This document shows positions 16,377-17,038 of a stretch of 30,262 nucleotides of DNA, piece after piece. The position numbers and the translations under genes are program-made. Origin of the DNA: a virus. Its lineage: Duplodnaviria; Heunggongvirae; Uroviricota; Caudoviricetes. Position 1 is the stretch's first letter, and every line of letters starts with the position of its first letter. The DNA lies in IMG/VR virus record IMGVR_UViG_2534681935_000039, positions 1 through 30,262 of that record. One strand, written 5' to 3'. Under the pieces are notes generated by a model. The model saw only the letters and a list, made by a program, of their open reading frames with translations, searched no databases and was not told where the DNA came from.

Positions 16377-16969
16377 TGATTACCATCCTGACGTTCTTTG
16401 AGTCGCTTCCTGGCTGCTGCTATGCGATCAGCAATTGTCACATTCACATTAACATCCAGACGTTCTTTGAACGCGTTGACATCAACATGCTTACCAATCA
16501 GCTCAAGGTTCTTCACCTTGTCAGGCCATTTAATTTTTTTGAGGATTGTCTCTATCGAATCCTCGTTCATGTTCATGATGGTCGATGACAGATCAAAGCC
16601 ACTAAGCGTAGTGCGCCAGATTTTCGGCCACTCACGGATTGGTTTAAGGCTCCCATCGTCGTTGAGGATATCGATCACGTCCATCTGGTCGATCTCCACC
16701 AGGCGCATGAGAACGTAATCAGCACTGACGCGCATTCGTTTGTTGCGCTCCTCCATCAACTCGGCAATCCGTTTTTGAATGCGTTCATCGCGCATCATGA
16801 CACTGGCTTTAACTGCCGCTGTATTTGGGGAGAATCCTGCGTTAATCGCTGCCTGAGTCTGGTTTTCAGGCGTTTTGATGTATGACTGGCAATAAGCCTC
16901 CTGCATTGCTGTGAGCGGCTTAAATTGCGTTGATTTGCGTTTATAGGTTTTAGGTTCAGCAGGCATCAT
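16373..16969 (-). CDS. terminase small subunit (about 198 aa from ATG 16969 or 16966; ORF track extends to TTG 17047)
   Basis: AAGGTGG RBS directly before the ATGATG pair; the longer N-terminus in the ORF track would cover a terminator and operator; immediately upstream of the large subunit. Confidence 0.55.
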   Translation of the reverse strand: MMPAEPKTYKRKSTQFKPLTAMQEAYCQSYIKTPENQTQAAINAGFSPNTAAVKASVMMRDERIQKRIAELMEERNKRMRVSADYVLMRLVEIDQMDVIDILNDDGSLKPIREWPKIWRTTLSGFDLSSTIMNMNEDSIETILKKIKWPDKVKNLELIGKHVDVNAFKERLDVNVNVTIADRIAAARKRLKERQDGNQ

Positions 16970-16986
16970 AACCACCTTGGTAATAG

Positions 16987-17001
16987 TTACCGTTATGGTA
17001 A
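16987..17001. promoter_or_regulatory. operator-like dyad S2: TTACCG-TTA-TGGTAA
   Basis: Matches the recurring dyad; lies between an intrinsic terminator and the terminase small subunit start, abutting a candidate extended -10. Confidence 0.45.
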
Positions 17002-17009
17002 TAGTACCA
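17001..17009 (-). promoter_or_regulatory. candidate late promoter, extended -10 (TGG-TACTAT on minus strand)
   Basis: TGn plus hexamer TACTAT; the operator starts at the last base of the hexamer, the same geometry as at the two early promoters; no clear -35. Confidence 0.3.
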
Positions 17010-17010
17010 T

Positions 17011-17038
17011 GCAAAATAAAGCCGCCATAGTTGGCGGC
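17011..17038 (-). terminator. rho-independent terminator upstream of the terminase operon
   Basis: GCCGCCA-ACUA-UGGCGGC 7-bp stem followed by UUUAUUUU on the minus transcript, just after stop of 17044..17277. Confidence 0.55.

What the first reader, a model, noticed from the sequence alone, without database searches (positions are those of the whole stretch)
16969..17038. Late (terminase) operon begins with terminator, extended -10 and operator dyad in 70 bp
A strong intrinsic terminator (17011-17038, minus) closes the upstream early/accessory operon. Its U-tract is followed by TGGTACTAT (extended -10, no -35), and dyad S2 starts on the last base of that hexamer, the same -10/operator junction as at the two early promoters. 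Packaging and virion genes would then be insulated from read-through and directly operator-controlled, with no Q-type antiterminator recognised. The Cys4 protein at 17274..17615 is a possible late regulator but only by position.
Basis: partly seen in the sequence, partly recalled or inferred. Interest (0 to 1): 0.45.

Follow-up and report, generated by a model that had tools for sequence, protein, structure and literature searches.

The report
Repressor-gated late promoter, ε15-like prophage
This 70-bp stretch starts the DNA-packaging and virion operon of an ε15/phiV10-type prophage: a terminator, a promoter with no -35 box and two binding sites for the phage's own repressor, a layout already annotated in reference phage ε15, so it is real but ordinary.

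Summary
On the minus strand, 17038-16964 reads: hairpin GCCGCC-AACTAT-GGCGGC plus TTTATTTT, then TGgTACTAT, then TTACCataacGGTAA (O1).

TTACC-N5-GGTAA occurs perfectly 7 times in the window (0.01 expected). The copies include the rep/cro and PL control regions. The window is a uetakevirus prophage (ε15/phiV10/TL-2011b type). Its repressor is a full-length homologue of SPC32H Rep (PDB 5D50).

The ε15 reference record already annotates the orthologous site as "repressor" binding, and the hairpin as a terminator.

Across 75 close relatives, all 8 variable columns between TG and ATG lie outside TG, the key -10 bases and the four half-sites (P about 2e-4). Two relatives lack the terminator but keep the promoter and operators.

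So: a Rep-occluded, extended -10 late promoter behind an insulating terminator. It is known in kind and untested experimentally. No Q-like protein was found.

The Cys4 protein showed no link to this promoter. Its gene ends in a conserved palindrome, GTGAC-N2-GTCAC, in several unrelated phage groups. Further copies lie beside terminators at late-operon ends. That palindrome is unannotated in the ε15 record, absent from the searchable papers, and more interesting than the finding itself.

The parts
17013..17038 (-). Intrinsic terminator ending the early-right/accessory operon: GCCGCC-AACTAT-GGCGGC followed by TTTATTTT.
   Evidence: -17 kcal/mol, z -3.7. Sequence-identical stem in ε15, SPC32N, Tyrion, phiV10, TL-2011b, L007 and L009-L014. 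Annotated as a rho-independent terminator in ε15 at 39646..39672.
17001..17009 (-). Extended -10 promoter element TGgTACTAT (TG 17009-17008, hexamer 17006-17001). No usable -35.
   Evidence: Conserved as TG(G/T/A)TA(C/G/T)TAT in all enterobacterial relatives, including L006 and L008, which lack the terminator. Only the n position and hexamer position 3 vary.
16987..17001 (.). Rep operator O1, TTACCATAACGGTAA. A perfect dyad overlapping the last base of the -10 and the predicted transcription start.
   Evidence: The orthologous site is annotated 'protein_bind: repressor' in ε15 at 12..27. Half-sites are invariant while the N5 spacer has at least 8 variants.
16969..16983 (.). Rep operator O2, TTACCAAGGTGGTTA. 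One mismatch, 18 bp from O1, covering the terS Shine-Dalgarno AAGGTGG (16978-16972).
   Evidence: Present with 1 mismatch or fewer in most relatives. Its half-sites are invariant in 75 close contigs. Chance estimate about 9e-5.
16373..16966 (-). terS (small terminase), first gene of the late operon. The real start is the second ATG (16966-16964).
   Evidence: Pfam Terminase_2, E 1e-29. Relatives align from residue 2. The first ATG is ATT in some relatives.
17044..17256 (-). 70-aa accessory (moron) gene, phrog_1541, inserted between the Cys4 gene and the terminator. Reduced to an 8-codon remnant in phiV10 and TL-2011b.
17274..17612 (-). 112-aa Cys4 protein (ε15 gp49 / phiV10 p55 / N15 gp46 family, phrog_536). 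Last conserved gene of the early-right operon.
   Evidence: Found within 1 kb upstream of terS in 15 of 15 Rep-carrying elements. No Pfam, NCBIfam or PDB match, and the AF2 model has pLDDT 57.
17266..17277 (.). Palindrome GTGACATGTCAC overlapping the stop codon of the Cys4 gene.
   Evidence: 76 of 78 contigs. Same position in the N15 group (49 of 49), ZF40, a Yersinia P2-like phage, Pantoea AH07, Vibrio VPHZ6 and Pseudomonas L015.
14815..14826 (.). Second copy of GTGACATGTCAC, directly beside the terminator hairpin downstream of terL.
24579..25163 (+). rep: two-domain HTH repressor, the presumed ligand of O1 and O2.
   Evidence: PDB 5D50 (SPC32H Rep), E 4e-42 over the full length. Pfam HTH_3.
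24461..24523 (.). OR cluster between rep and the cro-like gene. Dyads at 24461 (1 mismatch), 24492 (2 mismatches) and 24509 (perfect).
25221..25297 (.). OL pair (25221 and 25283, 62 bp apart) with PL, TTGACA-17-AATTAT.
22118..22194 (.). Operator pair (62 bp apart) at the promoter(s) of the 21770..22114 gene.
13818..13832 (.). Perfect dyad upstream of the head-gene block. Orthologue of the ε15 site at 2931..2947.

Best explanation
The region is the junction between the early-right operon and the packaging/virion operon of a uetakevirus (ε15/phiV10-type) prophage.

An intrinsic terminator stops early transcripts. Directly after its U-tract sits a sigma-70 extended -10 promoter (TGgTACTAT) with no -35. 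Its last base opens a perfect 15-bp Rep operator (O1), which covers about -7 to +8. A second, weaker operator (O2) 18 bp downstream covers the terS ribosome-binding site.

In the lysogen, the SPC32H-type Rep is presumed to occupy O1 and O2 and exclude RNA polymerase. Rep is a tetramer that is inactivated by an antirepressor rather than by cleavage. When Ant removes Rep, the late operon fires from its own promoter.

The same operator guards at least five other places in the window. One repressor therefore appears to gate every transcription unit directly.

Shown here: the sequence elements, their over-representation, their conservation pattern and the presence of a Rep homologue. Inferred: Rep binding at this site, promoter activity, terminator efficiency, and one tetramer spanning O1 and O2.
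For: - Seven perfect TTACC-N5-GGTAA dyads against 0.01 expected, all at operon starts, including rep/cro and PL.
- Rep homologue of PDB 5D50, E 4e-42.
- The ε15 record annotates the orthologous site as repressor-binding and the hairpin as a terminator.
- The architecture is conserved in 6 phages and 11 prophages from 10 genera. Pseudomonas and Samsonia relatives keep the rule that the last T of the -10 is the first T of the operator, but with different hexamers.
- L006 and L008 lack the terminator yet keep TGnTAGTAT, O1 and O2.
- In 75 close contigs, all 8 variable columns fall in the 17 non-contact columns and none in the 26 contact columns (P = 1.7e-4).
- The operator upstream of terS is present in 15 of 15 elements with a Rep homologue or uetakevirus backbone. 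It is absent in 8 of 8 loci that have related terS genes but no Rep.
- The same -10/operator junction occurs at PL and at the 22132 promoter, both of which have good -35 boxes.
- Rep binds palindromic sites as a tetramer, as summarised in PMC9638917.
- Rep overexpression abolishes late (holin, endolysin) transcripts in the relative ZX5 (PMC9782041).
Against: - No transcription start, footprint or reporter data exist for this site in any paper I could reach.
- The -10 matches consensus at only 4 of 6 positions, and the consensus promoter scan does not call it.
- Part of the -10 (TAT) coincides with the A/T-rich flank that many operators share, so its conservation is partly confounded.
- All relatives use the same half-sites even though their Rep proteins are only 41-100% identical. 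No operator/repressor covariation test was therefore possible.
- The ZX5 expression result does not separate direct from indirect repression.
Confidence: 0.78

Rival explanations
1. The late operon is expressed mainly by read-through or antitermination from the early-right operon. On this reading the dyads act as a Rep roadblock on elongating polymerase rather than as a promoter operator, and TGgTACTAT is not a working promoter.
For: - L006, L008 and L015 have no terminator between the upstream gene and terS, so read-through is physically possible there.
- The -10 is only 4 of 6 and there is no -35.
- A conserved palindrome lies upstream of this terminator and beside two others, and could mark a termination-control system.
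Against: - TG and the key -10 bases are invariant while neighbouring bases vary, even where the upstream DNA is unrelated.
- The terminator is strong and conserved in most relatives.
- No Q- or N-like protein was detected.
- The same -10/operator junction is used at bona fide-looking early promoters.
Confidence: 0.12
2. The promoter is real but needs the Cys4 protein (gp49-like), encoded just upstream, as a late activator. That would give a two-step cascade: Rep is removed, gp49 is made, then the late promoter fires.
For: - The gene lies within 1 kb upstream of terS in 15 of 15 uetakevirus-like elements.
- The promoter lacks a -35, as activator-dependent late promoters do.
- Some databases label the family 'transcriptional regulator'.
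Against: - There is no room for an activator site between the terminator and the -10.
- L006 and L008 have unrelated DNA upstream of TG.
- The palindrome linked to this protein is 55 to 260 bp from the -10, at variable distance.
- The family also occurs in N15, which has a Q-like late activator, and in a P2-like phage that has its own regulator at the ogr position. It is therefore not a dedicated late activator there.
- An extended -10 can work without an activator (established knowledge).
Confidence: 0.08
3. The repeated ACTATTACCA motifs are a packaging (pac) recognition site for the small terminase rather than transcription signals.
For: The motifs sit immediately upstream of terS, and several database records start their numbering there.
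Against: - The identical dyad occurs at 9-15 other places per genome, at rep/cro, PL and other operon starts. That fits a repressor, not a unique pac site.
- ε15 annotates it as a repressor site.
- Record starts are a convention for a genome that, from my memory of McConnell et al. 1992, is circularly permuted.
Confidence: 0.02

Closest known systems
Annotated repressor-binding sites of Salmonella phage ε15 (NC_004775.2; Kropinski et al. 2007)
   Same: Orthologous position. ε15 has a terminator at 39646..39672, then TGtTACTAT, then ATTACCAAAACGGTAA annotated 'protein_bind: repressor' at 12..27, then terS at 47. The same dyad is annotated at OL, upstream of gp3, upstream of the tail fibre gene and upstream of gene 43/44.
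   Different: ε15 does not annotate the second operator (O2) or the extended -10. The window carries an extra 70-aa gene between the Cys4 gene and the terminator. The ε15 sites are predictions as far as I could establish, because the paper could not be retrieved.
SPC32H Rep/Ant switch (Kim & Ryu 2013; Kim et al. 2016; PDB 5D50, 5D4Z)
   Same: The window's repressor aligns over its full length with SPC32H Rep (E 4e-42). The close SPC32H relative SPC32N carries the same dyads, including one upstream of terS. Rep binds palindromic operators as a tetramer and is disabled by a LexA-controlled antirepressor.
   Different: The window's Rep is only about 42% identical to the Salmonella Rep. The ant gene lies outside the window. 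Binding to the terS site has not been reported in anything I could read.
Phage P1 C1 repressor regulon (many dispersed operators)
   Same: Works alike: one repressor acts on operators scattered over the genome, each guarding a separate transcription unit, and is countered by an antirepressor (my knowledge).
   Different: P1 operators are asymmetric 17-mers, and C1 does not sit on the virion promoters, which need Lpa. There is no sequence or protein relationship. Not tested here.
Mycobacteriophage L5 gp71 stoperators
   Same: Many repressor sites lie in short intergenic spaces, including late regions, and are able to block transcription (PMC1934351 abstract; otherwise my knowledge).
   Different: Stoperators are asymmetric and orientation-dependent and act on elongation. 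Here the sites are symmetric dyads placed on the -10/+1 of promoter-like sequences.
Lambda PR'/Q late control
   Same: A terminator-bounded late operon begins just after the last early gene.
   Different: No Q-like protein or qut-type promoter was found. Control here appears to be by direct repression.

Membership tests
Uetakevirus Rep operator (ε15/SPC32H type) | 15-bp dyad TTACC-N5-GGTAA identical to the sites in the rep/cro and PL control regions of the same genome. | tested here: met
   O1 is a perfect match. There are 7 perfect copies in the window against 0.01 expected, including 24509 (OR) and 25221 and 25283 (OL).
Uetakevirus Rep operator (ε15/SPC32H type) | A cognate Rep protein is encoded by the same element. 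| tested here: met
   Window 24579..25163 against PDB 5D50: E 4e-42, residues 1-190.
Uetakevirus Rep operator (ε15/SPC32H type) | Orthologous position to a site recorded as repressor-binding in the reference phage. | tested here: met
   ε15 protein_bind 12..27 'repressor' upstream of terS at 47..643. Alignment.
Uetakevirus Rep operator (ε15/SPC32H type) | Physical binding of Rep to the site. | not testable with these tools
   Needs EMSA, footprinting or ChIP.
Intrinsic (rho-independent) terminator | G+C-rich hairpin followed by a U-tract, at the 3' end of a transcription unit. | tested here: met
   7-bp stem with 6 G-C pairs, then UUUAUUUU. -17 kcal/mol, z -3.7. It lies 6 nt after the stop codon of the upstream gene.
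Intrinsic (rho-independent) terminator | Structure kept by compensatory changes among relatives. | tested here: inconclusive
   The stem is sequence-identical wherever it is present, so there is no covariation to count.
Extended -10 sigma-70 promoter | TG at -15/-14, one base before a TAnnnT hexamer, with a weak or absent -35. | tested here: met
   TGgTACTAT at 17009-17001. The best -35 candidate is 3 of 6. TG, T-12, A-11 and T-7 are invariant in relatives, while n and hexamer position 3 vary.
Extended -10 sigma-70 promoter | A mapped transcription start or reporter activity. | not testable with these tools
   No transcript data were found.
Lambda-type Q/N antitermination control of late genes | A Q- or N-family protein is encoded in the early-right operon. 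| tested here: not met
   Pfam and PHROG scans of all ORFs from 17044 to 24424 found none.
P2 Ogr/Delta zinc-finger late activators (considered for the Cys4 protein) | A protein of about 72-90 aa with C-X2-C-X22-C-X4-C, acting at a TGT-N12-ACA site near -55 of late promoters (my knowledge). | tested here: not met
   The invariant Cys pattern is C-x2-C-x8-C-x7-C in a 112-aa protein. There is no such site upstream of the -10. A P2-like Yersinia phage carries both this gene (gp11) and a separate regulator at the ogr position (gp44).

The most novel reading that the evidence does not exclude
Uetakevirus transcription units may be punctuated by two cis-codes: Rep operators at their 5' ends and a second element, GTGAC-N2-GTCAC, at their 3' ends.

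The second element would be the DNA site of the conserved Cys4 protein (ε15 gp49 / N15 gp46 family, phrog_536), whose own stop codon it overlaps. On this reading the protein modulates termination or read-through, or insulation, at the boundaries of the early-right, terS-terL and virion units. That includes the terminator in this finding. It would be an uncharacterised regulator-plus-site module shared by podo-, myo- and siphoviruses.
Probability: 0.2. Interest if true: 0.6.

Novelty: already known. Interest (0 to 1): 0.2.

Why it matters
For annotation: about 9% of complete E. coli genomes carry this junction. The phiV10-style terS call (224 aa from a TTG) wrongly runs through the terminator, promoter and operators.

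For biology: it supports a flat control scheme in ε15-like phages, in which one antirepressor-sensitive repressor directly gates early, lysis and virion operons, with no recognisable late activator or antiterminator. That scheme is already implied by the ε15 record, so this finding adds conservation evidence rather than a new idea.

The side observation is the part that could open a new question: a Cys4 protein family tied to a GTGAC-N2-GTCAC palindrome across unrelated phage groups.

Tried and rejected
- **Operator/repressor covariation.** This was impossible. All 16 relatives use TTACC/GGTAA although their Rep proteins are 41-100% identical.
- **Primary papers.** Kropinski 2007, Kim & Ryu 2013 and Kim et al. 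2016 are not held. I relied on the GenBank feature table and on secondary descriptions.
- **Function of the Cys4 protein.** Pfam, NCBIfam, a PDB profile search and AlphaFold all gave nothing usable (pLDDT 57). No fold search was run on that model.
- **Distant-homologue scan.** I used single-protein scans and phage records instead.
- **Rfam.** Nothing in the region; the only hit in the window is a tRNA.
- **Consensus promoter scan.** It does not call the late promoter, because it requires a -35.
- **pac-site reading.** Rejected, because the dyad is dispersed over the genome.
- **GTGACATGTCAC as an RNA hairpin.** Judged unlikely. The sequence is invariant while neighbouring terminator stems covary, and the possible stem is only 4 bp.

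Full report
**What the window is.** DNA and protein searches place the window in the ε15/phiV10/TL-2011b group of temperate podoviruses, genus Uetakevirus. The late genes lie on the minus strand. terS is 16373..16966 and terL is 14901..16376. Upstream come accessory early-right genes, the replication genes, a cro-like gene (24194..24424, minus) and a repressor gene (24579..25163, plus). About 9% of complete E. coli genomes carry the junction.

**The observation.** Read on the minus strand, the elements are:
- hairpin GCCGCC (17038-17033) / AACTAT / GGCGGC (17026-17021)
- U-tract TTTATTTT (17020-17013)
- GCA
- TG (17009-17008), then g, then TACTAT (17006-17001)
- TTACCATAACGGTAA (O1, 17001-16987)
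- CTA
- TTACCAAGGTGGTTA (O2, 16983-16969)
- ATG ATG, where the second ATG (16966) is the real start

The terminator scan lists the hairpin. As RNA it folds at -17 kcal/mol, z = -3.7. No -35 better than 3 of 6 exists.

**The dyad is the phage's operator.** TTACC-N5-GGTAA occurs perfectly 7 times in the window, against 0.01 expected. With one-mismatch copies it marks six places:
- the rep/cro intergenic region (24461, 24492, 24509)
- the PL region (25221, 25283)
- downstream of the cro terminator (24124)
- upstream of the 21770..22114 gene (22118, 22180)
- upstream of terS (16987, 16969)
- upstream of the head genes (13818)

The repressor aligns over its full length with SPC32H Rep (PDB 5D50, E 4e-42). 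That protein is a two-domain repressor that binds palindromic sites as a tetramer and is disabled by an antirepressor rather than by cleavage (abstract).

**Already in the public record.** The ε15 reference entry annotates "protein_bind: repressor (lysogeny)" at 12..27, directly upstream of terS at 47..643. It annotates a rho-independent terminator at 39646..39672, the end of the record. It also annotates further repressor sites at positions orthologous to those above. Joined across the record ends, ε15 reads GCCGCCgactatGGCGGCTTTGTTTT-GCG-TGtTACTAT-TACCaaaacGGTAA-tta-TTACTtcggtGGTAA-ca-ATG. This is the same grammar as the window.

**Conservation.** The same layout is found in phiV10, TL-2011b, SPC32N and Tyrion. 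It is also found in eleven prophages from Pseudocitrobacter, Citrobacter, Erwinia, Klebsiella, Scandinavium, Superficieibacter, Kluyvera, Pseudescherichia, Pseudomonas and Samsonia.
- Two of them (L006, L008) have unrelated DNA and no terminator upstream, yet keep TGnTAGTAT, O1 and O2.
- The Pseudomonas and Samsonia elements use other hexamers (TAAAGT, AATAAT). They keep the rule that the last T of the hexamer is the first T of the operator.
- Among 75 close viral contigs, the 43 columns from TG to the start codon hold 8 variable columns. All 8 lie in the 17 non-contact columns: the n of TGn, hexamer position 3, spacer positions, the inter-operator triplet and the tail. None lies in TG, T-12/A-11/T-9/A-8/T-7 or the four half-sites (P = 1.7e-4).
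- Loci with related terS genes but another phage backbone (L017-L024) have no Rep, no Cys4 gene and no dyad.

**The junction recurs.** PL is TTGACA (25255-60)-17-AATTAT (25278-83), with the operator starting on its last T. The promoter of the 21770..22114 gene is TTGATT-17-TTTAAT, ending on the first T of the 22132 dyad. The distal dyad is preceded by GATAAT. In phiV10 and Tyrion the lysis cassette shows TAATAT or TATTAT at the same junction. The early promoters have good -35 boxes. The terS promoter instead has TG at -15/-14. The rep and cro genes are also followed by GCCGCC..GGCGGC-type terminators and then by operators. Terminator, then promoter, then operator is therefore the phage's general punctuation.

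**Mechanism.** The best reading is a Rep-occluded extended -10 promoter insulated from early transcription. O1 spans about -7 to +8, and O2 spans the early transcribed region and the ribosome-binding site. The 17-18 bp spacing of O1 and O2 matches the tight pair in OR. Other pairs are 62 bp apart in every genome. This suggests, but does not show, that tetramers bridge two dyads. Rep overexpression in the relative ZX5 removes more than 99.9% of holin and endolysin mRNA. That is compatible with direct control but not decisive. No Q- or N-like protein is detectable.

**Rivals.** Three rival readings are scored separately in the rival explanations:
- read-through with Rep acting as a roadblock
- an activator-dependent promoter
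- a pac site

**The Cys4 protein.** It is 112 aa (17274..17612) with invariant C-x2-C-x8-C-x7-C. It lies within 1 kb upstream of terS in 15 of 15 relatives. It has no Pfam, NCBIfam or PDB match, and its AlphaFold model is poor. Nothing ties it to the terS promoter.

**A side observation.** The Cys4 gene's stop codon is embedded in the perfect palindrome GTGACATGTCAC (17266-17277). A second copy lies at 14815-14826, beside the terminator after terL. Complete uetakevirus genomes have three copies: at the Cys4 stop codon, just after the terL terminator, and just before the terminator that ends the virion operon (0.04 expected). The neighbouring hairpin stems covary, but the palindrome does not.

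Homologues of the protein in unrelated phage groups carry GTGAC-N2-GTCAC at or next to their own stop codon. The central dinucleotide varies:

| Phage or group | Result |
|---|---|
| Uetakevirus contigs | 76 of 78 |
| N15-like contigs | 49 of 49 |
| Pectobacterium ZF40 | present |
| A P2-like Yersinia phage | present |
| Pantoea AH07 | present |
| Vibrio VPHZ6 | present |
| Pseudomonas prophage L015 | present |

The chance of one such site within 40 nt is about 4e-5. N15 itself has three copies: at the gene 46 stop, upstream of the antirepressor operon, and inside repA. The exceptions are Samsonia L016, Vibrio K303 and a weak Aeromonas homologue.

The element is not annotated in ε15, and the string appears in no searchable paper. 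The simplest reading is that it is the protein's DNA site. What it does there is unknown.

**Verdict.** The element is an orthologue of one already annotated in the type phage, so novelty is low.

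Noticed in passing
window 17266-17277 and 14815-14826; L002 2142, 19517, 39612; L225 (N15) 28550, 33237, 39269: The palindrome GTGAC-N2-GTCAC overlaps or abuts the stop codon of the Cys4 (gp49/N15 gp46-like, phrog_536) gene in uetakeviruses, N15-like phages, ZF40, a P2-like Yersinia phage, Pantoea AH07, Vibrio VPHZ6 and a Pseudomonas prophage. Uetakeviruses and N15 each have three copies (about 0.04 expected). In uetakeviruses the other two copies sit beside the terminators that end the terS-terL unit and the virion operon. 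It is not annotated in the ε15 record and the string is absent from the searchable papers. It is probably the protein's DNA site; its function is unknown.
   Followed up: partly
L006 ~9560, L007 ~9615, L008 ~9560, L013 ~1135 (just after the palindrome at the Cys4 stop); L087 ~3460: In several relatives the DNA after the palindrome carries a LexA-box-like TACTGT-N8-ACAGTA ahead of a small gene. In the P2-like Yersinia phage a CTGT-containing, A/T-rich stretch (TATACTGTATATA) lies ahead of the annotated tum gene, but it was not checked against the LexA consensus. In N15 one palindrome copy lies upstream of the antirepressor operon. This may link the palindrome to SOS-controlled antirepressor modules.
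   Followed up: no
window 22118/22180 and 25221/25283; the same pairs in L001, L002, L003, L005, L006: Paired Rep operators at PL and at the promoter of the 21770..22114 gene are exactly 62 bp apart, start to start, in every genome examined. The pairs at OR and terS are 17-18 bp apart. This suggests fixed-geometry bridging or looping by Rep tetramers.
   Followed up: partly
window 24579..25163 versus Rep genes of L002-L016: Rep proteins of uetakevirus-like elements are only 41-100% identical, yet all use the same TTACC/GGTAA half-sites. Immunity differences in this group, if any, may lie in the Ant-binding C-terminal domain rather than in operator specificity.
   Followed up: no
window 14155..14231 (+): A tRNA-Arg (anticodon TCT) lies in the variable region between terL and the head genes (ARAGORN, and Rfam at 73 bits). 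The ORF 14161..14412 (-) overlapping it is probably spurious.
   Followed up: yes
window 17044..17256 (-): A 70-aa accessory gene (phrog_1541) sits between the Cys4 gene and the terminator. phiV10, TL-2011b and L009 keep only its start and last seven codons (ATGCATGATGAATTTGATGTGTTTTGA), which looks like a deletion scar.
   Followed up: partly
window 16373..17047 (-) ORF; L003 41..715: The longest terS ORF (224 aa from TTG, as annotated for phiV10p01) runs through the terminator, the -10 and both operators. The real start is the ATG at 16966, because relatives align from residue 2 and the first ATG is ATT in some. Public terS annotations of this type are over-extended.
   Followed up: yes
window 24153-24172 (-), 25184-25203 (+), 17021-17038 (-): Three terminators of the same GCCGCC-loop-GGCGGC type follow cro, rep and the early-right operon. 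Each is followed within about 80 bp by Rep operators. The terS-proximal one is sequence-invariant across genera rather than covarying.
   Followed up: no
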